A stretch of 64,000 nt of DNA from a virus (lineage: Duplodnaviria; Caudoviricetes). Below, piece after piece: positions 38 through 45,100 of the stretch (its first letter is position 1; each line of letters begins with the position of its first letter). Both the position numbers and the translations under genes were made by a program. The notes beneath the pieces were generated by a model that saw only the letters and a program-made list of their open reading frames with translations, had not been told where the DNA came from and made no database searches. Where the stretch lies: positions 9,313 through 73,312 of IMG/VR virus record IMGVR_UViG_2791355157_000004; one strand, given 5' to 3'.

Positions 38-187
38 TCAGGATGTCAATGACGTGCATATCTCCTCCACAAATCGCATGTAGTTCATGTCCAGGGTAAC
101 ATTGCTTTCCAGTAGGGCAGTACACCAGACTTCGTTATAGCCGTAGCCCTCCTGCTTAAACAGGCGCAGCAGTTCGAGTATCCGCAT
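38..187 (-). CDS. small hypothetical protein, Glu5 mini-protein family (MRILELLRLF...)
   Basis: ATG at 187 inside ORF 38..358; M-x3-E-hydrophobic start like the 6-12.6 kb array members. Confidence 0.5.
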   Translation of the reverse strand: MRILELLRLFKQEGYGYNEVWCTALLESNVTLDMNYMRFVEEICTSLTS

Positions 188-2347: not shown

Positions 2348-2722
2348 ATGGGTTTCCCCTCACCAGCCACGGACTACGTTGAGCATCGAATTTCCCTCGA
2401 TGGGCTATGCAATACCCGTGCGCCTTCCGTCTACCTGTTTAAGGCAGGTGAGACGGTAATGCGCGCCGGGATCAGCAAAGGTTCTCTGCTCGTCGTTGAC
2501 AGCGCGATTACGCCATCAGACGGTAACGTGGTGGTGGCCATGATTGATGGAACATTTCGTGTGGCGCGTTACTGTACGCACCCGGCACCGTATCTGGAAG
2601 ATATGAATGTGCCGGGGCGTCGGCTCGCGACAGCAGGTGAGGATGTCATGCAGGGGGAGGAGACGATTTGTTTTGGCGTAGTCACCCACGCTCTGGGAGT
2701 GCTGCGGTCAGCCTACCAGTAA
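2348..2722 (+). CDS. umuD: UmuD'-like (HumD-type) S24 family protein
   Basis: Starts MGFPSPATDY, i.e. at the UmuD cleavage junction; GSLLVVD, GNVVVA and FGVVTH motifs; catalytic Ser and Lys not retained. Confidence 0.85.
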   Translation: MGFPSPATDYVEHRISLDGLCNTRAPSVYLFKAGETVMRAGISKGSLLVVDSAITPSDGNVVVAMIDGTFRVARYCTHPAPYLEDMNVPGRRLATAGEDVMQGEETICFGVVTHALGVLRSAYQ

Positions 2723-3031
2723 GCGGGCAATCGTGCGGACGGCTTCCAGCTCAGCCGGCGTGGCTTTGCCTTTAAGGGCTGCATTACGTGCTTTCCAATC
2801 CAGGCTTTTCACCTGGTCTGCCAGGGCGACGTTCGCCGGCGTGCCGGCGATCGCCACTTCCATCGGGTAACCCTTGATCTTGGTGGTGAGCGGGACGCAC
2901 ACCATCAGGTCGTGCTTATTATAGTAGGCCGGGCTGAGTACCAGCGCCGGTCTGCGGCCGGCCTGTTCGTGGCCAGCCTGCGGGTTGAAGTCCAGCCATA
3001 CGATATCGCCGGCTTCAGGGACAAATGCCAT
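2708..3031 (-). CDS. mazF: MazF/PemK endoribonuclease toxin
   Basis: GDIVWLDFNPQAGHEQAGRRPALVLSP, PLTTKIKGYP, LADQVKSLDW. Confidence 0.95.
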   Translation of the reverse strand: MAFVPEAGDIVWLDFNPQAGHEQAGRRPALVLSPAYYNKHDLMVCVPLTTKIKGYPMEVAIAGTPANVALADQVKSLDWKARNAALKGKATPAELEAVRTIARLLVG

Positions 3032-4182: not shown

Positions 4183-4348
4183 AGGTGATGTCCCTCAGAA
4201 GGTGTTTATCTTTATCAGGCGTGCAGTCGAACGGACAGTTGCGGCAGGCGATTGCCCCGCACCTGATACCGTTGCTGGCATCGCACAGTGGGTTATTTAG
4301 CGGATCGGTTGTGTCGTTGATGAGACACAGCAGGGTCGAGAGTTTCAT
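4154..4348 (-). CDS. Cys4 mini-protein
   Basis: MKLSTLL...LCDASNGIRCGAIACRNCPF. Confidence 0.7.
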   Translation of the reverse strand: MKLSTLLCLINDTTDPLNNPLCDASNGIRCGAIACRNCPFDCTPDKDKHLLRDITYEIRNPETD

Positions 4349-4517
4349 TCAGCTTGTCCATGATGTGCGGCACACGTGACGACACGGCACCGCCGCTCAA
4401 CGGGCAGTTGATGCACTCGATGCCGGTACAGTCCAGCGCTGGGACATTACAGACAGGGTTGCCCGAGATGAGCAGTTCGCTATACGTGAACTCCACTAAC
4501 AGGGGTTTCAGTTTCAT
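4293..4517 (-). CDS. Cys4 mini-protein
   Basis: MKLKPLL...VCNVPALDCTGIECINCPL. Confidence 0.7.
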   Translation of the reverse strand: MKLKPLLVEFTYSELLISGNPVCNVPALDCTGIECINCPLSGGAVSSRVPHIMDKLNETLDPAVSHQRHNRSAK

Positions 4518-4680
4518 TGATCATCTGCCTTAGCAGGCTGTTACCTTCACGGGCGTAGTCGAGGGGACAGTCCTTACATTCAATGCCTTCACAGCCGGCG
4601 CTGATACACAGAGAGGAGGTGGTTACTGTCATTTCACTGCGGAGAGTGGTGAGCAGGATAGTCAACTTCAGCTGGTTCAA
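4480..4680 (-). CDS. Cys4 mini-protein
   Basis: TTG start overlapping the upstream stop; LKLTILL...LCISAGCEGIECKDCPL. Confidence 0.62.
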   Translation of the reverse strand: MNQLKLTILLTTLRSEMTVTTSSLCISAGCEGIECKDCPLDYAREGNSLLRQMINETETPVSGVHV

Positions 4681-4934
4681 ATGACATTGTCCAATAGCAG
4701 AATTTGCAGGATAGCGTCCCGCAGGTATCTGAACGGCTTCATGTCTACGTAGTAGAAATGGCTGTTGGTCAGCCGCTTTATCAGATGCAGGCGCTTCGGT
4801 GTGGACACACTCCATATGCGCGTACGACGGTCATAATGCACCTTGTACTCGAAGCCCTCCGGCTTCTCCTTAACGACATTTCCGGTCAAATCATTGCGAT
4901 CGCTGTTGAGCACGTGCAATACGGTTCTGTTCAT
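4677..4934 (-). CDS. early hypothetical protein (MNRTVLHVL...)
   Basis: GGAG SD; first gene after the hairpin promoter at 4971. Confidence 0.7.
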   Translation of the reverse strand: MNRTVLHVLNSDRNDLTGNVVKEKPEGFEYKVHYDRRTRIWSVSTPKRLHLIKRLTNSHFYYVDMKPFRYLRDAILQILLLDNVI

Positions 4935-4969
4935 ATTTGTCTCCGAAGTTAAGAAGGAAAAGGCAAACG

Positions 4970-4988
4970 CCAAAAGGGGCGAAGCCCC
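4970..4988 (-). promoter_or_regulatory. vRNAP hairpin promoter (+1 near 4971)
   Basis: Template (+) strand CC-AAAA-GGGGC-GAA-GCCCC matches the N4 architecture CC-N4-5bp stem-GNA loop. Confidence 0.85.
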
Positions 4989-5033
4989 GGGCGAGTAATT
5001 ATGCAAGACCTTCAGACAAAAACCAGATTATTC

Positions 5034-5279
5034 CTAATGGTCCGATGAGTTGATGTCTGTCATGGCACGGTGAAGATCGTGCGCCAGGTGGGCGGTGAGA
5101 TTTAACGGGCAGATACTGCAAAAGTGCAGGTGAATGTTGGTACCGGGTTCGCGGTGCTGGCCGATATTCAGCGCACAGACATTACCTGGCATCGACGAGC
5201 ACAGGTCACGCTGCTCACCGTCGCCGGTGTCGCCAGGCTGAAACACCTGGATGGTGGACAGCACGTCATGAAGCTTCAT
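5034..5279 (-). CDS. Cys4 mini-protein
   Basis: MKLHDVL...LCSSMPGNVC...HFCSICPL. Confidence 0.7.
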   Translation of the reverse strand: MKLHDVLSTIQVFQPGDTGDGEQRDLCSSMPGNVCALNIGQHREPGTNIHLHFCSICPLNLTAHLAHDLHRAMTDINSSDH

Positions 5280-5454
5280 GATAAAGCTCCCTGAACAGGC
5301 TGCCCTCACACTGCAACGGGCAGTTCTGGCACTGGATGTCCCTGCAGCTGATTTTGTTCATATCCCGGTCATGCAGGTACTGGCACAGCGACTGGTTGTG
5401 CTTGCCTGTCTCTACAGGCTGGCTGGTGGCGATCAGGACGTTACTGAGTTTCAT
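5266..5454 (-). CDS. Cys4 mini-protein
   Basis: MKLSNVL...LCQY...SCRDIQCQNCPL. Confidence 0.7.
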   Translation of the reverse strand: MKLSNVLIATSQPVETGKHNQSLCQYLHDRDMNKISCRDIQCQNCPLQCEGSLFRELYHEAS

Positions 5455-5666
5455 GGTTCACGCCCTGTCATTTCATCCAGGATGTGCGTTTGCGGCAGGT
5501 TAGCTGATCGTGCCTGTTTGCCGGCGGACAGCGGACAGTTATGACAGTAGACATGCGTGTGCAGCTCCCGATCGGTATCGCAGACGCTGATGTTGTGCGC
5601 GCTGCACAGGCTCTTCTGCTCAACGGTTTCAGTGTGGGTGAGGAACAGCAGATCCAGCAATTTCAC
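5451..5666 (-). CDS. Cys4 mini-protein
   Basis: MKLLDLL...LCSAHNISVC...VYCHNCPL. Confidence 0.7.
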   Translation of the reverse strand: MKLLDLLFLTHTETVEQKSLCSAHNISVCDTDRELHTHVYCHNCPLSAGKQARSANLPQTHILDEMTGREP

Positions 5667-5844
5667 GGTATTCCTCCAACTCGGCTTTGCTTAGCAGGCA
5701 GATACTGGCGTCCGGGCAATAGAGTATTGCCTGTTTGTGTATTCCAATCAGTGATTTTGCCTCGGCCGCGTTCGGCATGTTGCGATCGTCGGACCGCATC
5801 TGTTCGCGAAGGGTGATGGCGTGTTGAATGAGGGTAGGGCGCAT
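5629..5844 (-). CDS. hypothetical protein
   Basis: GGAG SD; co-oriented with neighbours. Confidence 0.6.
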   Translation of the reverse strand: MRPTLIQHAITLREQMRSDDRNMPNAAEAKSLIGIHKQAILYCPDASICLLSKAELEEYREIAGSAVPHPH

Positions 5845-5868
5845 GGGTGATCTCCGGATTCTTCAGGC

Positions 5869-5901
5869 AAAAAGAAAGCCCGACGAGTTTACTCGTCAGG
5901 C
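5869..5901 (-). terminator. rho-independent terminator
   Basis: GCCTGACGAG-TAAA-CTCGTCGGGC followed by TTTCTTTTT. Confidence 0.7.
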
Positions 5902-6952
5902 ATCATCTTGAGAATCGTGGCGATCAGTTCAGGTGGCAGTGACTGGCTGTAGTAAATCCGCCAGTTCAGCTTCAGGCAGAGCTGCGTATCGGCATCACGG
6001 AACATGAGCCTGAGAATGCTTGCGGCATGTCTTTCCGGCACTGTGCCAATTCCTTCATCAGGGGAACAAGTGCGCCCAGATACACATCTTCCAGCTGCTC
6101 AGAAACGTGCATGTTGATAGCCCACATGGCCACAGCATACTCTGCTGAGTGCATCTGACTGATGATTTCTACCGTATCCATTGGTTTACCGGGTCGAGAG
6201 GGGTTGCCTGATGTTATAGCGCCGCAAGCGATAGAGATCAAACAGGACAATTCTGATTTTGGGTAAATGCTTCATTAAGAAGTACCACAAAATCAAAAAT
6301 TTGAGCATTTTCTAAACTGAGGCTGTCTGGGTTTTCGGTGGATTCCCATAGCAATTGCCAGACAGGACCTCCGGGTTGTAAGAGCATCGCCTGCACCAGA
6401 TGGCGCAAGGGCTCAGAAGGGGATTTCGTGAACGTCGTTGAGTTCATCGAGCAGCTGCCTTGACCGGACAAGCGTGGACGGTTGGAGACCCTTCAGCTGA
6501 AGTGCCCGGATTAGGGGCACCAGCCACAGCAGATCGTAAAGCAGGATAAAGAGTTTATCGTTATGTGATGGCGATCTCATTTTGGCCTTCTCTGATGTGT
6601 CGCAGCTGGTGGGCCAGATTGTTACAGACGGTTGGTGAGACCTGGCTGGTTGCGCTGCCCTGAGACAAGATCTTTTCCCAGAACAGCTCCCAGCACCACG
6701 GGTACATGAGCATGAAGATCTCACGTGCCGTAATCGTCTGTGATGATAACGCCGGCTGACCGGCCGCGGAGTGTAGTTTTTCCACAGATTTCCCTCGCAA
6801 GTTTCGGTGCGTCTTGAATATCAAGACCGCGAAACTGCCTGAGGCGTCTGCCAAAGGTCTGGCCCTTGGCTGCCCATTGCAGTTCGCTGTAAACAGCGAG
6901 CCACGAGGTCGGGTCGGAGTGGAGCGTGGAAATTATATCGGAGATGAGGTTT

Positions 6953-7105
6953 TTAGGCTGGTTCATTTGGCGGTATCAGGTCACTGGCTAACGGAATGCC
7001 AATATGCCAGGCGCAGCCGGCCTCTTCAATCATCCGGATCACCCGGTGCCAGATGAGGCTGTCCGCGTCGTTGTTGAAGAGTATCACCCATTCGGTCAGG
7101 CGCAT
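6953..7105 (-). CDS. Glu5 mini-protein (MRLTEWVILF..., 50 aa)
   Basis: Read by hand (below ORF cutoff); aligns without gaps to 8254..8403 (E5-W6, L9, G30-C31). Confidence 0.6.
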   Translation of the reverse strand: MRLTEWVILFNNDADSLIWHRVIRMIEEAGCAWHIGIPLASDLIPPNEPA

Positions 7106-8253
7106 GGGTGTGCCCCCATGTGTTTCACCAGGATCATGCTGCGCAGGTTAATGCTTCTGGTGGGCTGAGGTGAGCAGACTGAGCGCTGCATCATTTCCCA
7201 GACTTCGTTGCGGGCTATCGCCGTCAGCCACAGTTCGTGGAGTAGCAGGTTCAGCATCTTCTATGGCCTCGATCAGAGTCTGCATAAGCGGAAAACACAG
7301 GCTGAATTGCCTGTCTATATCGGGCAGCGACTGGGTGATCCCAACCCATGCGCGAGCGTGACAGCTCAACAGCCAGATGACGTTTACCGCGTGCATATGC
7401 ACTCCTTAATGGTTTTCAGTTCTCACAGCGTGAAGCTGTTTCAGTATGGTGTAGGCATCAAAGTCTGCCTCGTGTTGCCCGAATATGCCAGTGGCAGCAT
7501 CCGGGCTATGGCCGTCGTGAGTCAGCCAGTGCATGAAGGTCTGGCCCCGCGCTTCCGCGAAGAACCAGAGCACATCAGTGGTAGACATAGACTATCCCGT
7601 TGCATAAATGCTTCCAGTCACTCATGGCCATCATCAGCTGATCAGCGCATGGCAGGTAATCCGCGAACGGGTACGCCGGCGCTTTCTCATAGAAGCTGGT
7701 GACGATCGCCTGAGGGACGTTCAGGTCATTCGTGTTGTTGATGATTTCGTTCATGATGTCGGCAATGCGCACGGGTGCAGCTCCATATCCTGAGGGGTGA
7801 CCCGTAGCATATGCCGAATTGCGATGAACCAGGATTAGGCCGATTCCGAAAGTATTACCTCACACATATTACGTAATACTTATTCACGCCTGACGATGTA
7901 GGGCACGCCAGGCAGAAATTCTATCTGCACAGCAGCTTCGAGCTCCGTGGCATAAGGCTTGGCCTCATTCTCGGTACCGAAGCGTGGTGTGTTATCGGCA
8001 TCAAAGCCGGTAAACCACAGACCATCCGCTCTGCGTTTGATGTAATAGTTTCCGGTGTCAAACACGATTGCTCCTTATGTACGAAAACAGTTCCGGGTAA
8101 ATGGCGATCGCCGTCCTGGCAGCCTCGACCTGATCACCTGTATCAGGGAACAGGGTCTCCAGAACAATGCCCAGGCGATTCCACATATTCATATCATGCA
8201 CGAAGTACAGCATGGGCAGGATGATACCCGCCTTCCATTCGAACCCGTGCTGA

Positions 8254-8403
8254 TCAGGCATGCTCAACGCCCTCTATCTGCATGATCAGCTGCGTGACGG
8301 CGGCCATACGGCAGCCTTTTTTCACGGCGATACTCCAGATATCCAGGTAAAACCCGGGCTGACATTCCTCCCGGTACAGGCAGAACCACTCAATCAGTTT
8401 CAA
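8254..8403 (-). CDS. Glu5 mini-protein (MKLIEWFCLY..., 49 aa)
   Basis: TTG start, 14-nt overlap with the upstream ORF; paralog of 6953..7105. Confidence 0.6.
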   Translation of the reverse strand: MKLIEWFCLYREECQPGFYLDIWSIAVKKGCRMAAVTQLIMQIEGVEHA

Positions 8404-8592
8404 GGTTCAGTCCCTCAAGGGTTACGTTGAGTGAATCGGTATACAGGTTAAGCAGCACGATTCCGTCACCGTGTGCCGGCATCGTACCGTTGAGGTAACC
8501 GACAGAGAATGCACTGTATGCGCGAGCCAGTACCCGTATGTCACCGACTATCTCCAGCAGAATAATTTTTAACATGACTATCCCTCAGCGAT

Positions 8593-8625
8593 AAAAAATA
8601 ACCGGGAAGCCCGAAGGCTCCCCGA
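8593..8625 (-). terminator. terminator after the gp2-like gene
   Basis: CGGGAGCC-TTCG-GGCTTCCCG followed by a T-rich tail. Confidence 0.7.
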
Positions 8626-8630
8626 TTGGA

Positions 8631-9023
8631 TTATTTCATCAGTGCTGCCAGTACCGCGTTGGCCAGCGGGTTGTCGTTCTTCGCTGGCTCATCGTTCTGT
8701 GCTGCGCGACGCAGCTGCACGGTGAGGTTCAGCTCGACTTCTTTACCCGGCTCCAGCTGGGCGGCCAGCAGCTGCAGCTGTTCCAGCAGCGTGTTCTTGG
8801 CCTGCGCCATCTGGTTCCATTCGCTGTTGTTGGTGTTGGCACGGGCAGGTTTCATGTCGTCCAGCGGTAAGCCCACTGGCAGTGAGATGAACTCTTCGCC
8901 GGCCTGCACACCCACGTTCAGCCAGAACTCGGATGGTTTGCGCGGTTGCTGCGGATTCTGGGCAGACGCGTTGTTGCCTTTAACCAGAGATGATGAAGTC
9001 AGTGCAGAATTTAAAACAGCCAT
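8631..9023 (-). CDS. N4 gp2-like ssDNA-binding RNAPII activator
   Basis: 130 aa; FWLNVG, FISLPVGLPLD and TVQLRR motifs; lies behind a hairpin promoter next to the gp1-like gene. Confidence 0.82.
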   Translation of the reverse strand: MAVLNSALTSSSLVKGNNASAQNPQQPRKPSEFWLNVGVQAGEEFISLPVGLPLDDMKPARANTNNSEWNQMAQAKNTLLEQLQLLAAQLEPGKEVELNLTVQLRRAAQNDEPAKNDNPLANAVLAALMK

Positions 9024-9068
9024 GGTATGTCTCCGAATTTAAAAGAAAAAGGTTTTGGGCATAGTTAC

Positions 9069-9087
9069 CCATTAGCGGCGAAGCCGC
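9069..9087 (-). promoter_or_regulatory. vRNAP hairpin promoter (+1 near 9070)
   Basis: CC-ATTA-GCGGC-GAA-GCCGC. Confidence 0.85.
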
Positions 9088-9129
9088 CGCTAACAGACAG
9101 GGAAGGGCGTACAGAAAGCAGGATCGGGT

Positions 9130-9477
9130 TCAGAAATGCAGAACACCCTGCGCGACAGGGCTGGGCATGGCCATAAGGCTGCTCAGGTCTGCGCTCTCAA
9201 AATCAGGGGCATCTTTATCCAGCTCGTACTGGGTGCGGATGTCATTGAGGATGGCACGGTTGAGTTTGATGGCGCTCAGATCGCGCAGTGCCATGATAAT
9301 GGCCGATACCGGCTGGATACGTCCTGGCTCTTTCACTCCCCGCAGCAGCACACGCGAATCTTCTAAGAAGCGCGCTCGCAGTGCCGGGTCGGATTTGTGG
9401 CTCCAGATCATCTGACGGGTCAGTTTACGGCGGGTCCACATACGGCGGGCAAGGGCAGCCCGTGCAGTCATACACAT
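9130..9477 (-). CDS. N4 gp1-like early protein
   Basis: AGGAG SD; ARAALARRMWTRR...HKSDP...IQPVSAII resembles N4 gp1; synteny with gp2. Confidence 0.72.
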   Translation of the reverse strand: MCMTARAALARRMWTRRKLTRQMIWSHKSDPALRARFLEDSRVLLRGVKEPGRIQPVSAIIMALRDLSAIKLNRAILNDIRTQYELDKDAPDFESADLSSLMAMPSPVAQGVLHF

Positions 9478-9506
9478 AATTGATCTCCTGATTTGATGGG
9501 TGGTGG

Positions 9507-9526
9507 CCATCAGCGGCGAAGCCGCT
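9507..9526 (-). promoter_or_regulatory. vRNAP hairpin promoter (+1 near 9508)
   Basis: CC-ATCA-GCGGC-GAA-GCCGC. Confidence 0.85.
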
Positions 9527-9919
9527 ACTTCACATCTATGAAGTGTTACTTATTAAGTATGAAGGATTCATGCAACGCTTCCAGCGTTCGCATGCTCTCC
9601 ATGTAAAACTTTACATGATTGCTTATTGGGTCCTGCACGTGGTTTTTAACCACGGTCAGCATCAGTATGGCAATGTACCGGTTATCGCCTTTTGCTGCGT
9701 GCAGCTCGGCGAGCACCTCATAGGTGCGCATGATTCAGCTCCTGTGCAATGGCCACGGTCAGGGCGATATCGGTGATATCCCTGAATCGCGGCATTTTGT
9801 GTTTGGGATGTTTACCCAGGTACCAGGCGAGGATAATGGTCTCCTCGAACTGCCGATCGCGGTGGGCGAACATGTCATGGAGGATTCTGGCTGGTTTAAC
9901 ATAATCCGTATTTAGCGCA

Positions 9920-10093
9920 CTATAGGCCATAGATAGCCTGCGCGACAGAACCCAGTGTCAGTGTGTCGCAGGATTCTTTGGTGCGCCAGGGTGCGTTCAG
10001 CCAGAGTCCGTAGACGGCCCTCATGACGTTCACGTTGGCACCAACCAGCTCATCGCTGCCGCGCATGAGCATATAGATTTCACCTGCCTTCAT
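9920..10093 (-). CDS. Glu5 mini-protein (MKAGEIYMLMRG..., 57 aa)
   Basis: Read by hand; paralog of adjacent ORFs. Confidence 0.7.
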   Translation of the reverse strand: MKAGEIYMLMRGSDELVGANVNVMRAVYGLWLNAPWRTKESCDTLTLGSVAQAIYGL

Positions 10094-10283
10094 AGATAGT
10101 CCTCACTAATGCAGCCAGTTGGCCGGTGTCCATTAACTTGTGTTGCGTAACCATAGTGCCGTCTTCCAGCTTAGCGCGCCGGTAAACACGCCAGACGTGA
10201 TATACCCTGCGTGCCGCGGTATTGTCCTCGATGCGCGGTGAGTCACCGCGAATCTCTGCAAAAATCTCTGCTGCTTTTAACAA
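10080..10283 (-). CDS. Glu5 mini-protein (LKAAEIFAEIRG...)
   Basis: KAxEI...RG motif. Confidence 0.68.
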   Translation of the reverse strand: MLKAAEIFAEIRGDSPRIEDNTAARRVYHVWRVYRRAKLEDGTMVTQHKLMDTGQLAALVRTIYEGR

Positions 10284-10419
10284 TTTCTATCCCCAGCTTA
10301 ACCAGGCCACGGGTGTCGCCTATTTCATCTTTGTACGTCCGGAACAGTGCGTGTAATGCGCCGGTGTACTCCGCGTCAGGATTACCCCTTAACAGAATGA
10401 AGATCTCAACTGCCTTCAT
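10243..10419 (-). CDS. Glu5 mini-protein (MKAVEIFILLRG..., 58 aa)
   Basis: Read by hand; AAGGA SD; KAxEI...RG motif. Confidence 0.7.
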   Translation of the reverse strand: MKAVEIFILLRGNPDAEYTGALHALFRTYKDEIGDTRGLVKLGIEIVKSSRDFCRDSR

Positions 10420-10585
10420 ATATGTCCTTCGCCATAACGGCCAGTTTCCGTGCTGTTATTCTGTGGAGCACAAAATCCTCACCGTCTTCCCACGCATACC
10501 ACACTTCATTTATCAGTCTTGATGAATTCAGATGCGTCGCGACGCTGGTGCCCCGCATCAGTAAAAATATCTCTGCTGCTTTCAT
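10406..10585 (-). CDS. Glu5 mini-protein (MKAAEIFLLMRG..., 59 aa)
   Basis: Read by hand; AAGGAG SD; KAxEI...RG motif. Confidence 0.7.
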   Translation of the reverse strand: MKAAEIFLLMRGTSVATHLNSSRLINEVWYAWEDGEDFVLHRITARKLAVMAKDIYEGS

Positions 10586-10930
10586 GGATCTCCTTTGCGG
10601 TTATCATCAGGCGCATCACGGGTGTGCGCTGACCACCGTCAAATCCCCTGGCAGTGCGCCACACCTGCTCAATAGGGCTATTGCGGAAGTATGACGACTC
10701 CAGCGTAAAGATTGTGTGCAGCACCTCAGACGTCGTCACCCAGCTTCCCCAGTTTATCGGCATACTCTTTATCAGGCTTACCGGCCAGATGCCAGGCATA
10801 GCTGGCCATGTAGACCAGTGGCTTCTTCCTGCCCTCATGCCTGATCATGCTGTAGCGGTAGTGATTCCATGCACGACGTAATTCTGTCTGGTTAATCTGG
10901 TCTGCTGTGATAATTAAATCAGCGACAAGC

Positions 10931-11080
10931 TCACTTAATTGCATAGATGCCTTTCAGATCAGAACGAATAAAGCGGAATGGCAAATGCCATCCCGCTTTT
11001 GATTGTTACCAATGCTGCCCGATAATGACTGTTATCTTTGCAGATCCCAGCATATATAAAAGCAGCTCACCGGTTTTCAT
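10931..11080 (-). pseudogene. Glu5 family member with an in-frame TAA at codon 25
   Basis: MKTGELLLYMLG...QHW*QSK...LKGIYAIK*; the frame resumes and ends in the family's 14-nt overlap. Confidence 0.5.
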
Positions 11081-12402
11081 TATACTGCCTTACGGTTGTT
11101 CCTTACCTTTCAGAATACTGTCCAGGTCGTCGAGCGCCGTGTTCAGCTTCTTCAGTGGCTCATGCTTTATGTCTTTGCGATAGCAATGATCGGTTAGCAT
11201 AGTCCTGACTTTATGACTGCTGAGCATCATGATAAGGATGTTTCGTATTTTCACTATTCAACACTTAATTGAAACCCCAGTTTCTTACAGATGCCAGGGA
11301 TATGTTTAAACGAGGGCAATATAGTACGGCGATAGCCTTTCGTTGAATAGTCAGCGTGAGAGATAATTGCTTGTTTAAGGGTTGGTTTGGTCCACAAATA
11401 TTTCATTAGTGCTTACTCCATGGGTATGCACACACCGGCCAGGATGCGTGCGGAAGTATGTGACATTGTCACACGGGATTAACGTCAGTGCATTTCGCGC
11501 TGATGTATATTTCCTTGGCGAGTTGCTGGGCGAGCCACCAGTCACTGAAACTGCCCCCGGCCATGCGGAGCGTATGCAGAATTGCACCGCTGGTGGCGCT
11601 GGTGGTAAGAATAAGATGAAGCACTTCATTCAATGACATGGCGCTTCCTCTTATTATCACGATGGTTCATGATGAGCGCCATAATAATCCAGAAGGCGAT
11701 TAAGCCTCCTGTTAACAGAGTGTCTTTGCACATGGTTCACCTGCGGATAATAAAGGTTACAGCATGATGTTAATTAACCACTTCGCTCTTCCGAGATAGT
11801 TTCCGGTGAACCGGATACCATCAATGGTTATTTGCGCGTGGTACATGTAAAAGTCCTGAGGTATTTCACTGCGCTGCGTTGTGTTCTCGATAATAAACTC
11901 ATCGATGCCAGCTAGTGCGTGAAGCTTTATTTGTTTGATAATTTCAGGTGTCAGATAAAGTAATTTATCGTCATTCTGATTACGCAGCATGTTATATTTC
12001 AAGGATGTTCACCAGGTTTAATGCCATAGACAGGTTATAAGAGGGAAATACCATGCCGGCATGATTAGCATGGATAAGGAAGCAGTTTTCTAGGGTTGAG
12101 CCGGCTTTTATCTCAAGATAAATGCGGACCAACACCTCGCTGAGTCGTACAGATTTCACGTAGCGTGACCTCTGTGACTCCAGACCTCGTGAGTCTGGAG
12201 TCACAATCAATGACGGCGTTTGCGCATGTGGTATGGAAAATGGCGCTGCGCCGTGCGGTACAGCTTCCAGCGCTTGCGGATGATCAGCCAGTGATGGATA
12301 GACTGCACGCTGGCGAACACGGCCATGATGATGGCCACGCCAATGAGCCCGATGCCTAACCAGGCGCTCAGGTGATGGGTGTCTTCGACGTGTGATGCGG
12401 CG

Positions 12403-12570
12403 TTAATCAGTAATTCGTGCATGGTATAGCTCCTGAATGATGTGCTGAATTTTTATGGGTACCAGATCGGGATCTGATGGTATGGCGTCAAAAACCAGAG
12501 GGTTGAGGCGCCACTGCGTATAGGTATTGGCCTCGATGAGGATGTAATGCAGGTATTCCACGAACGTCAC
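12403..12570 (-). CDS. Glu5 mini-protein (MTFVEYLHYIL..., 55 aa)
   Basis: AGGAGG SD plus GTG; read by hand. Confidence 0.62.
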   Translation of the reverse strand: MTFVEYLHYILIEANTYTQWRLNPLVFDAIPSDPDLVPIKIQHIIQELYHARITD

Positions 12571-13156: not shown

Positions 13157-13474
13157 TTAGTCGAACAGTGCTGCGCATTCGACAAACAGTTCCTGCAACT
13201 CAGTTGAGTGTGCAAGTTCTTGTTTAATCGCATGCTTCTGCGTAGCGAGACGCAGTGCTGCTGAGTCTTTGGAGGTGACACGATGCACGATGAGATCGTG
13301 TTTGGTATCCACCTCTGCTTTGGCATACATGGCTGATGCCTTGAGGTTTAGGGTGCCTAAGGCTTTGGAGATAGTCTCCACAGTACCTGTTACACCCTGA
13401 GCTAAGCTGCTCACTGTGTTCATTACGTCAACGACTGCGCCTGTTGATGATGCGGTTACGCCTTTGTTTAACAT
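13157..13474 (-). CDS. first early protein (MLNKGVTAS...), hypothetical
   Basis: AGGAG SD; directly after the hairpin promoter at 13513. Confidence 0.72.
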   Translation of the reverse strand: MLNKGVTASSTGAVVDVMNTVSSLAQGVTGTVETISKALGTLNLKASAMYAKAEVDTKHDLIVHRVTSKDSAALRLATQKHAIKQELAHSTELQELFVECAALFD

Positions 13475-13511
13475 GGTGATGCTCCTGATCCTGATAGTGA
13501 TGGCATGATTG

Positions 13512-13530
13512 CCACTACCGGCGAAGCTGG
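13512..13530 (-). promoter_or_regulatory. vRNAP hairpin promoter with one G-T pair (+1 near 13513)
   Basis: CC-ACTA-CCGGC-GAA-GCTGG. Confidence 0.68.
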
Positions 13531-13619
13531 CCCACACACGAAGGAGGAGGCAAACCGGGGGGGAGTGTCCGGTGTTGTGTAATGTGTGGGGCCACACCCC
13601 TACTCTCAGACGTCACCAT

Positions 13620-13647
13620 AAAAAAATGGCCAACCTTTCGGTCAGCC
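13620..13647 (-). terminator. rho-independent terminator
   Basis: GGCTGACC-GAAA-GGTTGGCC followed by A and T7. Confidence 0.72.
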
Positions 13648-13818
13648 TTTTGGTATTGGCCGCCTGGCCAGTTCCTTTTGCAGCTCTGCTATCTGCCGCT
13701 CCAGGGAGACTATCCGTCCCTGATAGTGCGCGGTCAGGATCTCCATGTTCTCTTTGTTCTGCTGGGTCAGGCGTTGCCGTGTGCGATCGCAGTTATCGCA
13801 GTTCTTTGGTCTTCCCAT
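13642..13818 (-). CDS. 58-aa CxxC plus coiled-coil protein (MGRPKNCDNC...)
   Basis: Read by hand; ends in the terminator. Confidence 0.55.
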   Translation of the reverse strand: MGRPKNCDNCDRTRQRLTQQNKENMEILTAHYQGRIVSLERQIAELQKELARRPIPKG

Positions 13819-13827
13819 ATTTCATAC

Positions 13828-14121: not shown

Positions 14122-14168
14122 GGATGGTGTCCTTGCAATGCCGGTACCAGGCGGTACCGGGGGGGTCG

Positions 14169-14902: not shown

Positions 14903-14954
14903 GTGGGTCCTTGGTTCATTTGAGGGCGCCGCAGCGCCCCAGCCGGGAAGGAGA

Positions 14955-15260: not shown

Positions 15261-15273
15261 CTGGTGGACCTGC

Positions 15274-16079: not shown

Positions 16080-16102
16080 AGTGATTCTCTCTGGTTCAGA
16101 AA

Positions 16103-16127: not shown

Positions 16128-16129
16128 TA

Positions 16130-39036: not shown

Positions 39037-39111
39037 TAGTTCGCTGATCTGACATAACTTATTATGGGGGAGCGTACACACTCCCCCTTCTTTATGTCTG
39101 AGGATCGGCAC

Positions 39112-42100
39112 ATGGCCTATGAGCTAAATTACGGACAGCCCCTGGCCGGGCAGTCCGTTGGCGACGTGAAAAAGCAGCAGGTGGCAGAAGCCTCCGCAGC
39201 TAAGCAGCAGGAGCTCGACCCTGCCGCCGCCTACAACAAGGACCTGGCGAGCCTTGACCCCGTCCTGCTCCAGCAGAAGTACGGCGATAAAGCGGTCGTT
39301 GACCAGCTGGACTACAAGCTGGGCGCGGCACAGAGCCAGCGCATGGACAACTGGGATCGCAGCGCAGGTGAAGTCACCAGCGATACCGGTTTATCGGTTG
39401 CCAAAGGCGCAGTTGGCCTGGGCGGTTTCCTGTCGAGCTTCGCCCGTATGGCGGGCCAGGGCATGGCCGTCACTGGTCAGAACTGGAACGACCCTGAACA
39501 GGCACTGAAGAACCTGCACGCCGTTGAAGTGGGCAATGCCCGCTCCGCTGCGGCGCAGAACCAGAGCATCAATAATGCCAATGACGCGCTGACGCAGGCC
39601 CTGAGCCGTCGCAGCCAGCTGGCAGAGACCCGCACCAACGCGGATATTCAGGATCGCCAGCAGCAGAACACCGCGCAGTATGACGCCGACCTTAAAGCCG
39701 GTGCGTCCCCGCTGGTGGCCGGACTGGAGCAGCTGGGCCGTGGCTTTGTTGACGGTGCCAGCGCAGTCGCCAAAGACCCGACCTACCTCAGCAACTTCGT
39801 CGCCCAGCAGGTCCCTTCCCTCGCCCTCGGTCCGGCCAGCGCCGTAGCCGCCCGTGCTGAAGTCGCAGCAGGCCTCACTGGCTCAGCAGCCCGTGACCTT
39901 CTGAAGTCTGAACTCGGTAAAGCCGCGGTCCAGAAAGCCGGTACCCGTAACCTGATGGCAAGCATCGGGATCACCGAAGGCGCTGGCGCCGGTCAGCAGA
40001 CGTTTGACCAGGTGAACCAGACCAGCTTTGATGATCTGCAGAAGCACTCGCAGGACTACCGTGACCTCATCGCCCAGGGCAATTCCCCTGAGGATGCCCG
40101 CGCTGTCGTGGCCCAGCGTTCCGCCAATGCGGCAACGCTTATCCAGACGCCTGCCGCTGCCCTTGCCGGCAAGATTGCCGCGAAGTTTGAGCTGGCACCG
40201 CTGTCAGGTGGTGGCGCTACCGGTGCTGCCCGCGTCGGTCATGCCCTGATGAGTACGCTCAAAGAGACCGGTGAAGAGACCCTTCAGTCCGGTGGCGGTC
40301 AGCTGGCGCAGAACGTCGGCGTGAAGAGCTACGCGGACGACACGCAGTCCCTGTCGGACGGTGTCGGTGAGCAGGCCGGTATGGGTGCGCTCGGTGCCGT
40401 CGGTTTAACCACCGCAGTCCAGGCGCCAAGCGCCGCTGCCGGCGTGGCAAAAGTCACTGCGCGCCAGACCGCTGACATGGCGAAACAGGCGGCCGGTTTC
40501 TCAATGACCAAACTGCGCGATATCGCCGAGAAGCGTACCGCGCTGAACCCTGAAGACCAGGCCGCTGCCGATGCACAGACACAGTCTGAGTCCATCAACA
40601 CGGCCGCTCAGGAGTACGCCCAGGCGCAGCCGCAGGCGGCTACGGATGAGCAGGCCACTGAAGAAGCCCCTGCCGCACCCGAAGATACCCGCATTGGAAA
40701 GCTGGCTCAGCTGAACCAGTTCCTGTCACACCCGCAGGCACCGGAAGCGCAGAAGCGTGACCTGGTGGCCAAAGCCGTGGTGCAGATGGGCAACATGGTC
40801 AATGAGTACAAAGCCATGGGTGCAGAGGTAGAAGCCGATCCTGACGCTGACCACACGGTAACCCTGGGCAAGATGCAGGCGATGGAAAAAGCCTTCGCCT
40901 CTCCGGAATTCCAGAACATCATTGCCCACCAGCAGCACTACGCGCAGAACCCGATCGACGTCGCTGCTGCGGATGAAGCGATCCCCGAACAGGTCGGTAC
41001 CGCAACGCCTGAGATGCAGCAGCACGCCAAAGACGTGGCGGATCAGGCGGCTATTGAGCCGGAAAAAATCCCTGAGCCGCTGTATCAGAAGGTGATCAGC
41101 AACGGTAAAGCGCTGGGCCTGAACCCGCAGCAGATTGCGCAGGTACAGGGTGGCCTGAAGGTCGCGCAGCTGTCGCAGACCAAAGGCATCGACATGGTCA
41201 ATAAGGACGTGACAGAAGGCGGCAACGCCCAGTTCATGAGCCTCAAGGACCACGTGAAGGGCGTCTATGCCGGCCTCGCTGCCAATGACATGCAGAGCGC
41301 GCAGAATGCCATGACCGGCCTTCAGGCGTTTGCGCAGCACATGGCCAGCAAAGCGGCTGACTTTGACGCTGCCTACGATCGCTGGCAGGCCAACCCGGCA
41401 GCCGGTCCGGTCAGCGTGACCCGTGCCGACGGTTCCACCTACAACTCGCTGGTAACCGCGGGCCAGCAGGCGAAACCGATGTTTGCCTCCGGCAAGTCAT
41501 CCGTGCTGATGGCGAAGATCCGCAATGAAGCGAAGCTCCTGGCGGACACCTACAACCAGATGCTGTCGGACCATCCGGAGCTGTCTGGCTCACCGATTTC
41601 ACTGGCCCCTGCCCCGCAACAGCAGCAGGCACAGCCAGTGGCGGCACCTAAACCCGCTGCACCGGTGCGTGAATCCACAACCGGTACCGGCGTCTTTAAC
41701 GGTGAGCGTGAGCTGACCCGCGCTGAGATGCAGGACCTCGCCTCCGGTGAAGTGACGATCGCCGACCTCAAACAGAAGTGGGCTGACGAAGCCGCACCGG
41801 CGCCGGCGGTACAGGAGCCTGTGGCGGAAGCAGCCCCTGAACCTGCCCGGGCAGCTGAGCCGGTACCGCAGGAATCAGTACCAGCACAACCAGAGCCAAC
41901 TCCGGTGGAATCTCCAGCAGAAACCAGGGACAATGTTACTGAGCCGTTAAGTAAAGCAGACCCAGTAACTGCTAACCCAGAACCTGTGACTCCACAAACT
42001 GATGAAGCCGGGGAGCCGCAGAATGAACCGTCTGAACCATCTGAGCCTGTGGCTGATCGTGAGCCTGCAGGTGAACCTGTGGTGGCTGAAGAGGACACTC

Positions 42101-45100
42101 AGACGGGCGCTGAGCGACTTCTTGCTAATCTGACACCACGCCTTAGCCGCGAGCGTACAGAAAAGGAGAGCGAGGCCGATCACGAAGCCCGCGTCTCCAA
42201 CGCCGTGGTGAAATGGTTTGCGCCGGCTAAAGCCCGTACCCCCTTCTCCCGCACCCTGGATTTCATGTCGAAACTCGGCGAGGCGCTGCGCACATCGGCG
42301 GATGCCACCGGTGAACTGCTGGGCCTGAAAGACGGTGAGCAGCTGACCCAGGAAAACATGGATGCACTGGAGACGCTGACCTACCTCAATGACCGGTTCC
42401 GCGATGAATACGCGCAGGCCATTGCTGCCAAGCTGGCCAAGGTCAAAGACCTCAATGCCCTGCCGTGGCGCAACAGCCCTATCCTGTATTTCACCCGCGT
42501 CAGCCAGAAAGGTGAGCTGCGTTCGCACCAGACGTCACGTCACGCCACCGATGCGATCGGCATGGCGGCGCTGAAGTTTGCCCTGGATAACCTGAACGCC
42601 ACCGGGCCAACGTCACGCGAAGACCTGGCGGAAGACCTGAACATCAGCGCTGACCAGATCACCGACGCCATGATGGAGCGGTTCATGACCGGCTCGCAGG
42701 CATTCAGCGTGGTGGCCGGCCGTCTCGCCGCCTCGATTACCCGCACCATGGGCCTGAAAGCCAGTGATGACGCCCCCGGCAACATCGCCAACGGGATTCC
42801 GCTGTCGCTGGCCATGGATGCGCTGAACGTGCTGCAGAAGCTGGGCCTGGCGAAGATCGACTCCCTGAAAATGGATGTGGGTACCGCTGATGCACCGGAG
42901 ATTAAAACCTTCAAATCGGTGAGTTTCGTCAACGATGAAGGCAGTGCGCTGCGCGACATCGATGCTGCGCTGGGCAGCCAGCTGGACCTGCTGTCCCGCA
43001 TGATTGACCCGGAGAGCAAAGCCTCTGCGTACATCGATGCGCTGCCGCCTGTCGGTGGCGATCGGCTGGGCCGCTCACAGGTACAGAAGCTGTCTTCCCG
43101 CCTGAAGGATACTGTACGCAACCTGCAGAAAAAGGCGTTCTACCTGAACACCGACCTGCATGATCTGGTTGAGGGCATGGGCTTTGACGCCGTGGGTAAA
43201 ATGCTGGGTATCCGGGAAACGGATAACCTCAACCGGATGCACGCGGAAAGCGTCGAGGGCAAGAACGTCTCCATTCGTTCAGCCCTGGCAAGCTGGCAGC
43301 GCGGCATGTCTGACCTGCAGGCGAAAGCCGGCGATCGCAACCTGGGTGACATCCCGGTGCGCTTCGCCTGGTCCATCGGCAGCAACATGCGCGCCATGCT
43401 GAACTCCACCACCTTCAACCCGCAGCGGCATAAATTCCACCGCGAGCTGATGACCGGTGAACCCCGTGCGATCACCCTGGGTGATAAAAAGCAGGTTCAC
43501 CAGTTCCAGATGGCGGTAGCCCAGGCAATGGGCGTGAAGGTTGACCGCATGAGTAACGCAGCGGCCAAGGCTAAAGCAGCCGAGAAGCTGGCTGATCCGA
43601 CCGTTGCCGCTGCCGTGGATACGCTGAAAGCGCACCTCGGTGACTACTCCGGCCTGACGGCCAGCGACGTAGGGGTGATCACTGCGGCGGTCGGCATTGC
43701 CGGCGAGGGCATGAAATCCTTCCATGGTCTGCTGGCTCAGGCGAAGTTCCTGCATGCGCAGGAGAATGGCGCCACCAGCTTCATGAACCATCTCACCTTT
43801 GAGCTCGACGGTAAAACGGATGGTCCGGCAAATGCCCTGGTGCATTTCGGATCGGCGCGGGGTGACAGCACCTTCTTCAGCATGCTGAAGAAAGTCGGCC
43901 TGTTCGTGAACGATGCCTCCACCGCGCTGAACGTGTTCTCCGCCGGTGACTCCGACATCTACCAGGAAGTGTCAGCGCGCATCAACAACGTGCTGAAAGC
44001 GGCGAATCCGGACAACATGGAACCGGGTGCGGTGCGTGCCATGAAGGGGCAGCTTCGTCTGCTGCAGCTGGCGGGTAACATTGAGATTGCCGATCCGGAT
44101 GATATCAAGACGGCAACCGCCACCCGTAACATGGCCAAGAACCCGGTGACGCAGACCGTCTATTCTGCCGGTGACGACGCCAAGGTCCGCAGCCTCAGTA
44201 AGCAGATGCAGACGGCCGTGTATGAGGAACTCAGTAAGGCGCTGGCTCAGGGTACCCAACTTGACCAGAGCATCGTGGATGCCGTGGAGTCCCTGACCGG
44301 GAATACTGCGCTGCGCGATCCGGCGAACTATCAGGGTTTCCGGTTCTCGCCCAACGACAACACGCTGATGGAAAACCACCTGACCACCGGCATGGGTGCG
44401 GTGCTGAATACGGCGATCGGCGACGTGCTGGGTAACGTGGTGACCTCCGGCCAGACGCTGGCCAAGGCCGCTGCCGTTCAGCACCAGTTCTTCGCCGCCG
44501 CGTTCACCAAAGCCCGCCAGGCGAAACTCGACGCGCTGCGTGCTGCAGGCGAACTGTCGGGATTTGAAGATCTGTCCGCGGCTCAGGTGCAGGAAGTCTA
44601 TGATTCCGTGGTTCACCTCGCACCGATTTACCACAACGCCCTGACCAGCGGCACGAACCCGCGTGACGGGATGCTGATGAGTAAAGAGGTCCGCGGCAAA
44701 TTCACTGAGCAGCGCGCCGAGTCAGTCTTCGGTGACAAAACCGATATCCCGGCGCTGGACTTTGAGGCGCCAGGCGCACGCCCTGCTCCGATGATGACCA
44801 TCTCCTCAGGCGATGCCACCATGATGGCGCTCTACTTCCTGAAGCACGACAACGCCCTGAACGTCTTTGACGGACTGGAGGTTATGCCAGGGGAGTTCGA
44901 TGCCGCCGCGAAGGCGATCAACGAAGCGGTGTTCCAGGGCTGGCAGTTTGGCCTGATGAGCAGCATTGCCGAGTCGTATGAAGCCGGTATCCGCGCTGTC
45001 ACGCCTGACCTGTTCAGCGGCCTGTCTGTGGCAGAGCTGGGCAACATGGCGCGTAACCTGCGCATTCCCGCGAAGCAGCTGAAGGGTCTCGATGCCGGTC

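What the first reader, a model, noticed from the sequence alone, without database searches (positions are those of the whole stretch)
5972..12570. Large tandem array of Glu5/Asp5 mini-proteins filling the early region
Seen N-termini: MKAGEIYMLMRG, LKAAEIFAEIRG, MKAVEIFILLRG, MKAAEIFLLMRG, MTTSEVLHTIFT, MSLNEVLHLILT, MTFVEYLHYILI, MQLSELVADLII, MKTGELLLYMLG, MRTYEVLAELHA, MRLTEWVILF, MKLIEWFCLY, MDTVEIISQM, MSTTDVLWFF, MRIADIMNEI (plus MRILELL at 187). DNA repeats persist at junctions (AGATxTCAxCTGCCTTCATA at 10075 and 10401), and starts recur every ~140-205 bp between 10093 and 11254. Many are under 60 aa and missing from the ORF track. Inference: an accordion-like array of diversified early effectors for host takeover or anti-defence, transcribed by vRNAP right after entry.
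Basis: partly seen in the sequence, partly recalled or inferred. Interest (0 to 1): 0.82.

Follow-up and report, generated by a model that had tools for sequence, protein, structure and literature searches.

The report
Early mini-gene block of N4-like phage
The stretch is the densely packed early-gene block of an N4-like Pantoea phage, holding several small tandem families of roughly 60-residue proteins of unknown function, and the recurring Glu/Asp at residue 5 comes largely from the way neighbouring genes overlap.

Summary

The window comes from an N4-like (Schitoviridae) Pantoea phage. The range lies in its left-end block, a gap-free tiling of about 43 minus-strand mini-genes.

It is not one demonstrable family. 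Sequence and profile tests support:
- family A: four clear tandem paralogues, one probable fifth and a 24-codon remnant (9920-11080);
- family C: nine members, one inside the range (9731..9546), another at 187..38, the rest beyond the window start;
- a Cys-rich family B of four (4293-5666);
- singletons.

What they share is a seven-residue N-terminus, M-x-x-x-[D/E]-hydrophobic-hydrophobic. It occurs in 16 of 43 tiled ORFs, against 25 of 1008 random ORFs. Most also carry a Trp about 20 residues in.

In 10 of the 16, residue 5 coincides with a TGA in the -1 frame. In 8 of those the TGA is the upstream gene's stop codon, giving a 14-nt ATG-N8-TGA overlap that suggests translational coupling.

The paralogues are old (24-42% identity), so this is not a recent accordion. 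Four N4-type hairpin promoters fit early vRNAP transcription, but family A sits behind a terminator-like hairpin. Function is unknown.

The parts
13478..13612 (-). Sequence resembling the left genome terminus of N4 and Erwinia phage S6, with an imperfect TTC-loop hairpin (about 13530..13518), the candidate early promoter P1
   Evidence: Alignment with the N4 and S6 left ends; hairpin scan, also conserved in G19
13157..13474 (-). First left-end gene (105 aa), homologue of Erwinia phage S6 gp001
   Evidence: BLASTP E=2e-5 over the full length; S6 gp001 lies at 101-430 of a linear record
12403..12570 (-). Mini-ORF (55 aa, GTG start) with the N-terminal heptad; singleton; no TGA at codons 4/5
11626..11733 (-). 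35-aa mini-ORF with a hydrophobic core, conserved in L002; its TGA stop lies inside codons 4-5 of the next gene
11469..11639 (-). Mini-ORF (56 aa) with the heptad; 14-nt overlap with the upstream ORF; singleton
11254..11406 (-). 50-aa ORF without the heptad, 78% identical in the distant relative L002
11090..11254 (-). 54-aa ORF missing from G19 and from G19-like metagenome contigs (a nearly gene-precise indel)
11006..11080 (-). 24-codon remnant resembling the N-terminus of family A
   Evidence: BLASTP E=0.01 to the ORF at 10093
10970..10999 (-). Terminator-like hairpin (13-bp stem plus T-rich tail)
10726..10944 (-). Mini-ORF (72 aa) with the heptad; TGA present at codons 4/5 but not used as a stop; singleton
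10506..10739 (-). Probable fifth member of family A (54 aa up to 10575), which has lost the junction stop and reads on to 10506
   Evidence: E=0.074; hhalign E=0.0019, probability 14%
10406..10585 (-). Family A member (59 aa)
10243..10419 (-). Family A member; junction stop lost, reads on for 8 extra codons
10080..10283 (-). Family A member (67 aa, TTG start; the ATG at the homologous position is mutated)
9920..10093 (-). Family A member (57 aa)
9718..9930 (-). 70-aa ORF without the heptad; 11-nt overlap through a TAG stop
9546..9731 (-). Family C member (61 aa), with a 14-nt overlap
   Evidence: HMM of family C, E=3.2e-5 among 684 six-frame ORFs
9512..9526 (-). N4-type hairpin promoter candidate (6-bp GC stem, TTC loop, TGG downstream)
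   Evidence: equivalents in L002 and G19
9130..9477 (-). 115-aa ORF between two hairpin promoters; highly divergent from its G19 counterpart
9075..9087 (-). N4-type hairpin promoter candidate upstream of the gp2 homologue
8631..9023 (-). Homologue of N4 gp2 (130 aa)
   Evidence: tblastn: 187 phage records including N4 gp2
8600..8627 (-). Terminator-like hairpin
8254..8403 (-). Mini-ORF (49 aa, TTG start) with the heptad; 14-nt overlap
7575..7772 (-). Mini-ORF (65 aa, GTG start) with the heptad; distant counterpart in Erwinia phage Fifi011
7406..7588 (-). Mini-ORF (60 aa) with the heptad (Asp5); 14-nt overlap
6953..7105 (-). Mini-ORF (50 aa) with the heptad; no TGA at codons 4/5
5972..6181 (-). 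Mini-ORF (69 aa) with the heptad; no TGA at codons 4/5; weak ribosome-binding site
5878..5901 (-). Terminator-like hairpin
4293..5666 (-). Family B: four Cys-rich mini-proteins (5666..5451, 5454..5266, 5279..5034, 4517..4293); two of the four meet the D/E5 heptad, the other two have N or P at residue 5
   Evidence: (E 7.6e-5 to 0.003)
4976..4988 (-). N4-type hairpin promoter candidate
38..187 (-).

Best explanation
The range is part of the left-end (early) gene block of an N4-like Pantoea phage. The block is a gap-free tiling of about 43 minus-strand mini-genes of 24-130 codons, running from the genome's left terminus (about 13.6 kb) to the RNAPII genes. It holds several families rather than one repeated gene. 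Family A has four clear tandem paralogues, a probable fifth and a 24-codon remnant (9920-11080). Family C has one member here (9731..9546); its other eight lie at 187..38 and beyond the window start. Family B, Cys-rich with four members, lies just below the range. The remaining ORFs are singletons. What unites many of them is a seven-residue N-terminus (M-x-x-x-[D/E]-hydrophobic-hydrophobic) and, in most, a Trp about 20 residues in. AlphaFold predicts three short helices for families A and C, at low confidence. Glu/Asp at residue 5 is largely a side effect of gene packing. Codon 4 ends in T and codon 5 starts with GA, so a TGA sits in the -1 frame. In 8 junctions that TGA is the stop codon of the upstream gene, a 14-nt ATG-N8-TGA overlap, and a ribosome-binding-like purine run lies inside the upstream gene's last codons. 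I infer that ribosomes finishing one mini-gene restart on the next (translational coupling). I also infer that the block grew by old tandem duplications of units carrying this junction, followed by fast protein divergence. Shown here: the anatomy, the statistics and the family structure. Inferred: coupling, early expression, and a role in host takeover or counter-defence.
For: Identity and position: the only close relative among the phage records is Pantoea phage G19, at 94%. The window holds a 3489-aa vRNAP ORF and a gp2 homologue. The 105-aa ORF at 13474 matches S6 gp001. The terminus-like sequence aligns with the N4 and S6 left ends. Four hairpins matching the three N4 promoter hairpins lie at 13525, 9520, 9082 and 4983, and all are kept in G19.

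Coding: 37 of 43 candidates score best in their own frame by codon usage, against 0 of 40 other ORFs in the region. 35 of 43 are intact in G19.

Families: family A pairs reach BLASTP E=1.3e-7 to 0.02. The family-A profile finds 16 proteins at E<=1e-3 among 1.84 billion, of which 12 are other small proteins of 56-74 aa. A syntenic metagenome contig carries five family-A copies. An HMM of family C finds the ORF at 9731 at E=3.2e-5 and converges on 9 members with no decoy included.

Residue 5: 10 of the 16 D/E5 ORFs have T before GA, against 30 of 102 random ORFs, and 8 of those TGAs are the upstream stop. Of the 16 14-nt junctions on the minus strand, 10 lie in the block from -2024 to 10739. In L002 both copies with Gln at residue 5 have lost the stop, and the upstream ORF reads on. 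The same rule holds in S6 and in N4 gp10.

Fast evolution: motif ORFs show 24 synonymous against 44 non-synonymous codon changes relative to G19. Four conserved neighbours show 38 against 15.
Against: The 43-ORF tiling is my own. No expression or translation data exist: no RNA run holds the stretch. Six of the 16 D/E5 ORFs have no TGA, and two family-A genes keep Glu5 although the stop is lost. The overlap therefore cannot be the whole reason for residue 5, and it does not explain the hydrophobic residues at 6-7. The P1 hairpin has a mismatch in its stem. Family A (10944 to 9546) and the segment 8575 to 5889 each lie just downstream of terminator-like hairpins and have no hairpin promoter of their own. 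Similar heptad-bearing arrays sit at the right end of Erwinia phage S6, and most of family C sits past the RNAPII genes. The motif is therefore not specific to vRNAP-early genes. Both structure models are of low confidence (pLDDT 67.5 and 70.5).
Confidence: 0.65

Rival explanations
1. One superfamily. All 22 or more heptad-bearing mini-proteins descend from a single ancestral three-helix gene and have diverged beyond detection everywhere except the N-terminal helix and one Trp.
For: The heptad occurs in 16 of 43 tiled ORFs against 25 of 1008 random ORFs. Of 42 genome-wide motif starts, 23 fall on the minus strand between -3292 and 12570. Trp at residues 15-36 occurs in 19 of 22 motif ORFs outside family B, against 773 of 2532 random and 10 of 60 long ORFs. 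hhalign of family A against family C gives a collinear end-to-end alignment with the Trp in register, P about 0.002-0.008. The AlphaFold models share the same first two helix boundaries. One L002 copy has an N-terminus intermediate between two types.
Against: No profile search reaches significance: the HMMs, and hhalign probabilities of 5-14%. Trp is also frequent in neighbouring ORFs without the motif (13 of 24), so it discriminates weakly. Family B shares only the N-terminus and has a different Cys-based core. Short helical proteins tend to look alike.
Confidence: 0.35
2. The heptad is a functional tag: a common N-terminal address shared by otherwise unrelated effector modules. It could be a binding site for one host or phage partner, a turnover signal or a sorting signal, either spread by recombination at the junction or gained convergently.
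For: Families with different cores (A, B, C) carry the same heptad. The N-terminus is the best-kept part between positional counterparts in L002 and Fifi011, for example seven identical first residues with nothing else alignable. The heptad recurs in another phage genus.
Against: There is no known partner and no cleavage site. N4 virions are not known to carry small proteins (my recollection, no call). The first 14 nt are also constrained by the overlap, which by itself slows change there.
Confidence: 0.15
3. A recent genomic accordion: copies amplified under selection from a host defence, with copy number changing quickly.
For: Tandem arrangement. A nearly gene-precise indel at 11081-11254 against G19. 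L002 carries five copies where the window has four or five.
Against: Copies are 24-42% identical. The array is unchanged in G19 and in two G19-like metagenome contigs.
Confidence: 0.04
4. Most of the mini-ORFs are not genes, and the pattern is a by-product of base composition.
For: They are short and unannotated in G19, and no RNA data are available.
Against: Frame-specific codon usage in 37 of 43 against 0 of 40 other ORFs. The tiling is gap-free with ribosome-binding-like motifs. ORFs and family members are conserved in independent metagenome contigs.
Confidence: 0.03

Closest known systems
Early ORFan block of coliphage N4 (gp1-gp14) and of LUZ7-type phages
   Same: Same genome position: the left end, between the first gene or gp2 and the RNAPII genes. 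Same strand logic, hairpin promoters of the N4 type and small proteins of unknown function. Background comes from passages read in PMC4496689 and PMC9163698.
   Different: The block is about 13.4 kb here against about 6.7 kb in N4. About 4.1 kb of mini-genes separate the first gene from gp2, against about 105 bp in N4 and 700 bp in S6. N4 has one heptad-like gene at most.
Right-end mini-gene array of Erwinia phages vB_EamP-S6 (gp103-gp114) and Fifi011
   Same: Tandem genes of 42-79 aa. 9 of the 13 S6 right-end genes start with M-x-x-x-[D/E/Q]-hydrophobic-hydrophobic. 14-nt overlaps coincide with Glu at residue 5.
   Different: The array lies at the other genome end. No significant full-length similarity to the window's ORFs. 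In S6 the motif is mostly ...-E/Q-L-L.
Hyperplastic regions and PeSL cassettes of T4-type phages (PMC2839356, PMC4122927; search listing and abstract openings only)
   Same: Blocks of small, fast-changing early genes, with gene-sized indels between close relatives.
   Different: There the conserved boundary is a promoter-terminator stem-loop between genes. Here it is a start/stop overlap inside coding sequence, and only three terminator-like hairpins lie in about 9 kb.
Genomic accordions (poxvirus K3L type; T4 counter-defence amplification, PMC9391042 and PMC13096335; search listing and abstract openings only)
   Same: Tandem copies of small genes that may act against the host.
   Different: Accordions are recent, near-identical and variable in copy number. 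These copies are old and stable among close relatives.
T4 internal proteins sharing an N-terminal capsid-targeting sequence (recalled, no call)
   Same: Unrelated small proteins that share only about ten N-terminal residues.
   Different: No evidence here of cleavage or packaging. It is offered only as a model for the tag hypothesis.

Membership tests
N4-type early (vRNAP-transcribed) gene block | Lies at the left genome end, which enters the cell first | tested here: met
   S6 gp001 homologue at 13474; terminus-like sequence; gp2 homologue. The physical ends were not mapped, because only contigs were available.
N4-type early (vRNAP-transcribed) gene block | Preceded by hairpin promoters (short GC stem, 3-nt loop) | tested here: inconclusive
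   Four sites in the right orientation and in intergenic context. The first has a stem mismatch, and the segments 10944-9546 and 8575-5889 follow terminator-like hairpins without a hairpin promoter.
N4-type early (vRNAP-transcribed) gene block | RNA made in the first minutes, independent of host RNA polymerase | not testable with these tools
   No RNA run holds the stretch.
   BLASTP, HMMs and hhalign: only families A (4 plus 1), B (4) and C (9) are supported.
   16 of 43 against 25 of 1008; 23 of 42 genome-wide hits lie in one 16-kb stretch of one strand.
   Three-helix models for A and C at pLDDT 67.5 and 70.5. Foldseek against BFVD gave no match at E<=0.001.
Genomic accordion | Near-identical tandem copies | tested here: not met
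   24-42% identity among the window's copies.
Genomic accordion | Copy number varies among close relatives | tested here: not met
   Family A has the same copy number in G19 and in the G19-like contigs X11 and X13.
PeSL-type cassette shuffling | Conserved promoter-terminator stem-loops flank the cassettes | tested here: not met
   The junctions are coding overlaps; there are three terminator-like hairpins in the block.
PeSL-type cassette shuffling | Gene-precise indels between relatives | tested here: met
   One case: 11081-11254 is absent from G19 and from X11 and X13.
Any Pfam or PHROGs family | Match at or near the curated threshold | tested here: not met
   20 ORFs were scanned in each library. 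Pfam gave none. PHROGs gave nothing below E=0.01 for A, C or the singletons. Family B matched phrog_14146, of unknown function, at best E=3.3e-5.

The most novel reading that the evidence does not exclude
The seven-residue N-terminus is a shared address tag carried by more than 20 otherwise unrelated early mini-proteins in Pantoea and Erwinia N4-like phages. One host or phage partner, such as a chaperone, a protease or part of the entry machinery, would read the tag, while the variable remainder supplies different activities. The 14-nt start/stop junction would double as the recombination joint that lets new modules be swapped in.
Probability: 0.15. Interest if true: 0.8.

Novelty: new variant of a known kind. 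Interest (0 to 1): 0.5.

Why it matters
Blocks of tiny early genes are where phages keep host-takeover and counter-defence functions, and most such genes remain unassigned. This report gives three things.

- It defines three undescribed mini-protein families (A, B, C), none with a named function. A and C have no Pfam or PHROGs match.
- It gives a simple rule that explains a striking protein-level pattern by gene overlap: a 14-nt overlap through TGA forces Asp or Glu at residue 5, and through TAA forces an AAN codon at residue 5 (Lys in both cases seen). Readers of raw phage sequence can use this rule to avoid mistaking packing constraints for homology.
- It leaves a shared N-terminal heptad across families and across two phage genera that the overlap does not fully explain and that can be tested directly.

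It also maps the likely left terminus and four early-promoter hairpins of a poorly annotated phage.

Tried and rejected
- Relatives: scans of IMG/VR contigs with the family-A alignment and with the gp2 homologue found none. tblastn of a family-A protein and of the 105-aa first gene against the phage records found only G19. The DNA searches likewise found only G19.
- The ESM Atlas gave no usable hit.
- Foldseek of the family-A model against BFVD gave 25 matches, none at E<=0.001. I made no PDB search because the model is weak.
- The sigma-70 promoter scan found 11 sites against 13.1 expected, so nothing.
- No RNA holder is listed among the sequencing runs. The runs I laid are contigs only, so neither genome ends nor expression could be read.
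- My own first reading was wrong. From gp2 synteny with N4 I placed 9546-12570 upstream of the first early promoter, in a right-end module. I dropped this after finding the S6 gp001 homologue, the terminus-like sequence and the fourth hairpin.
- hhalign of each remaining ORF against family A, and of family A against family C, stayed below any accepted threshold.
- A database search with family C returned only the same proteins or close relatives.
That several share a contig is inferred only from equal contig lengths.
- Literature searches for a prior description of such arrays in N4-like phages found none (passages of PMC3915230 read).

Full report
**What the window is.** The window is 64 kb of a 73,312-bp assembly of an N4-like phage.
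- It encodes a 3489-aa virion RNA polymerase ORF at 39064..49533.
- The only close relative among 50,697 phage records is Pantoea phage G19, at 94% identity, and G19 is almost unannotated in this region.
- The 130-aa ORF at 9023..8631 is the homologue of N4 gp2. It matches 187 phage records; N4 gp2 is 39% identical.
- The 105-aa ORF at 13474..13157 matches gp001, the first gene at the left end of the linear record of Erwinia phage S6 (E=2e-5, full length).
- The 135 bases upstream of it align with the left termini of N4 and S6: a G-rich start, a CACAC-type stretch and a run of C.
- I therefore place the genome's left end near window 13.6 kb, read on the minus strand. The minus-strand genes from 16380 to 13650 then correspond to the small right-end cluster of N4 (gp70-72).
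- I first misread this and placed the array upstream of the first promoter. The S6 comparison corrected it.

**Check of the observation.**
- Four use GTG or TTG starts. One (11080) is a 24-codon stump.
- The repeated DNA at 10075 and 10401 is the junction between two pairs of family-A genes.
- I tiled the minus strand from 13474 to 4293 into 43 candidate ORFs (this is my own call).
- 16 of the 43 have Asp or Glu at residue 5, and all 16 have hydrophobic residues at 6 and 7. Random ATG-ORFs give 102 of 1008 and 25 of 1008. Auto-called middle and late genes give 3 of 43 and 3 of 45 for D/E5.
- Genome-wide, 42 of 2831 open starts fit the motif. 23 of those lie on the minus strand between -3292 and 12570, and nearly all of them are tiled mini-ORFs of 49-81 aa.

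**Are they genes?**
- With a codon-usage score trained on 23 long genes and with stop codons ignored, 37 of 43 candidates score best in their own frame and 6 score second. None of 40 other ORFs of 45-130 codons in the region scores best.
- 35 of 43 are intact in G19 by a simple alignment test.
- A 2682-bp metagenome contig (L002) from a more distant relative keeps the same order of mini-ORFs. Its gp2 is 78% identical, while most mini-proteins cannot be aligned.
- No RNA data were available.

**Family structure.**
- BLASTP among the 43 candidates gives two clusters. Family A comprises 10585, 10419, 10283 and 10093 (E=1.3e-7 to 0.02). Family B, Cys-rich, comprises 5666, 5454, 5279 and 4517.
- A profile of family A searched against 1.84 billion representative proteins finds 16 at E<=1e-3. 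Four are the window's own or G19's copies, two are spurious long proteins, and the rest are small proteins of 56-74 aa from metagenomes.
- Enlarged profiles add only the ORF at 10739 (E=0.074 among 684 six-frame ORFs; hhalign E=0.0019, probability 14%). Its alignment keeps the Trp and the C-terminal helix.
- Nothing else rises above reversed-sequence decoys.
- A third family, C, emerged from the motif scan. Iteration converges on nine members with no decoy. These are 187..38, 9731..9546 and seven ORFs beyond the window start.
- Family A against family C by hhalign gives a collinear alignment with the Trp in register, but only P=0.002-0.008 and probability 5-13%.
- AlphaFold models are three-helical with the same first two helix boundaries, at low confidence. 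Family A has helices 3-11, 16-33 and 45-58 at pLDDT 67.5. Family C has helices 3-10, 16-30 and 32-54 at pLDDT 70.5.
- 20 ORFs were scanned against Pfam and PHROGs. Pfam gave nothing. PHROGs gave only a weak unknown-function match for family B.

**Why residue 5 is Asp or Glu.**
- In 10 of the 16 cases codon 4 ends in T and codon 5 begins with GA, so TGA stands in the -1 frame. The random expectation is 30 of 102.
- In 8 of those cases the TGA is the stop of the upstream tiled ORF, giving a 14-nt ATG-N8-TGA overlap.
- Of the 16 such junctions between ORFs of 40 aa or more on the minus strand, 10 lie between -2024 and 10739. Four are antisense to late genes and so are noise. The plus strand has 2.
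- Where the T is replaced (10585 and 10283), the upstream ORFs read on for 23 and 8 extra codons.
- In L002 the two copies with Gln at residue 5 have likewise lost the stop.
- The rule holds in S6 (three TGA overlaps, each with Glu5) and in N4 gp10. Overlaps ending in TAA put Lys at residue 5, in the window at 6966 and in S6 at 2573.
- A purine-rich ribosome-binding-like run lies 5-12 nt upstream of nearly all these starts, inside the upstream gene's last codons. That also explains the recurring C-terminal residues.
- I infer translational coupling. It is not shown.
- The overlap does not explain the hydrophobic residues at 6-7, the six D/E5 genes without TGA, or the two that keep Glu5 after losing the stop.

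**The shared N-terminus and the Trp.**
- Trp occurs at residues 15-36 in 19 of 26 motif ORFs, or 19 of 22 outside family B. Comparison figures are 773 of 2532 random open starts and 10 of 60 long ORFs, but also 13 of 24 neighbouring ORFs without the motif. It is suggestive, not decisive.
- The right-end arrays of Erwinia phages S6 and Fifi011 carry the same kind of N-terminus. 9 of the 13 S6 right-end genes do so if Gln is allowed at residue 5.
- Two window ORFs share their first six or seven residues exactly with Fifi011 ORFs. One of the two also shares a C-terminal patch (E=9e-4).

**Transcription.**
- N4's three early promoters appear in its record as GC-stem hairpins with TTC or TCC loops followed by TGG.
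- The window has four equivalents in the right orientation and context, at 13525 (one stem mismatch), 9520, 9082 and 4983. All are kept in G19, and two are present in L002.
- Passages of PMC4496689 and PMC9163698 state that such promoters lie at the left end, which is injected first, and have a stem of at least 4 bp and a 3-nt loop.
- Strong terminator-like hairpins lie at 10999..10970, 8627..8600 and 5901..5878. Family A and the block 8575-5889 therefore need read-through or an unrecognised promoter.

**Dynamics.**
- Against G19, the motif ORFs show 24 synonymous and 44 non-synonymous codon changes. Four conserved neighbours show 38 and 15.
- G19 and two G19-like metagenome contigs lack 11081-11254, which is one ORF, and have other sequence at about 5500-5860 and 4180-4600. 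Family A is unchanged in them.
- L002 has five family-A copies.
- The 24-codon stump at 11080, the hairpin behind it and a family-A-like C-terminal reading just upstream of 10944 look like a disrupted copy. This is inference.
- Copies are 24-42% identical. The duplications are therefore old, and this is not an accordion in the strict sense.

**Limits.**
- The tiling and start codons are mine.
- No expression data exist.
- The genome ends are inferred.
- The superfamily question is open.

Noticed in passing
window 4293-5666 (-): Family B: four tandem Cys-rich mini-proteins of 62-81 aa with paired Cys motifs, possibly zinc-binding. Two of the four carry the D/E5 heptad. They match phrog_14146 (unknown function) weakly. 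The region differs between the window and G19.
   Followed up: partly
window 38-187 (-) and L008 1777-4500 (genome bases before the window start): Family C: nine paralogous mini-proteins of 49-61 aa. Most lie downstream of the RNAPII large-subunit gene, and one is displaced to 9731..9546 beside family A.
   Followed up: partly
window about 2348-3282: G19's annotation places a PemK/MazF-like toxin gene, an AbrB/SpoVT-like gene and an opposite-strand UmuD-like gene between the two RNAPII subunit genes. The window has the matching 107-aa ORF at 3031..2708. A toxin-antitoxin-like pair inside an N4-type early block is unusual.
   Followed up: no
window 11254-11406 (-): A 50-aa ORF without the heptad is 78% identical in the distant relative L002, where its neighbours are unalignable. 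It is probably a functionally constrained early protein.
   Followed up: no
window 9130-9477 (-): The 115-aa ORF between two hairpin promoters is the most divergent gene against G19 (22 synonymous and 44 non-synonymous changes plus 15 gapped bases), yet it is conserved in position in L002.
   Followed up: no
window 10945-11080 (-): A 24-codon family-A-like stump, then a 13-bp-stem hairpin, then a family-A-like C-terminal reading ending at an unused TGA inside the next gene. It looks like a family-A copy broken by insertion of the hairpin.
   Followed up: partly
window 13650-16380 (-): The right-end module of about nine minus-strand genes ends at a terminator-like hairpin (13647..13628). It includes a helix-turn-helix protein and an N4 gp49/Sf6 gp66-family protein, according to G19's annotation. 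None has the heptad. It spans about 2.7 kb against 1.1 kb in N4.
   Followed up: no
L005 5612-7867 (Erwinia phage S6 gp103-gp114): A right-end array of 12 mini-genes, most beginning M-x-[L/I]-x-[E/Q/D]-L-L. It appears to be the same phenomenon in another genus and at the other genome end.
   Followed up: partly
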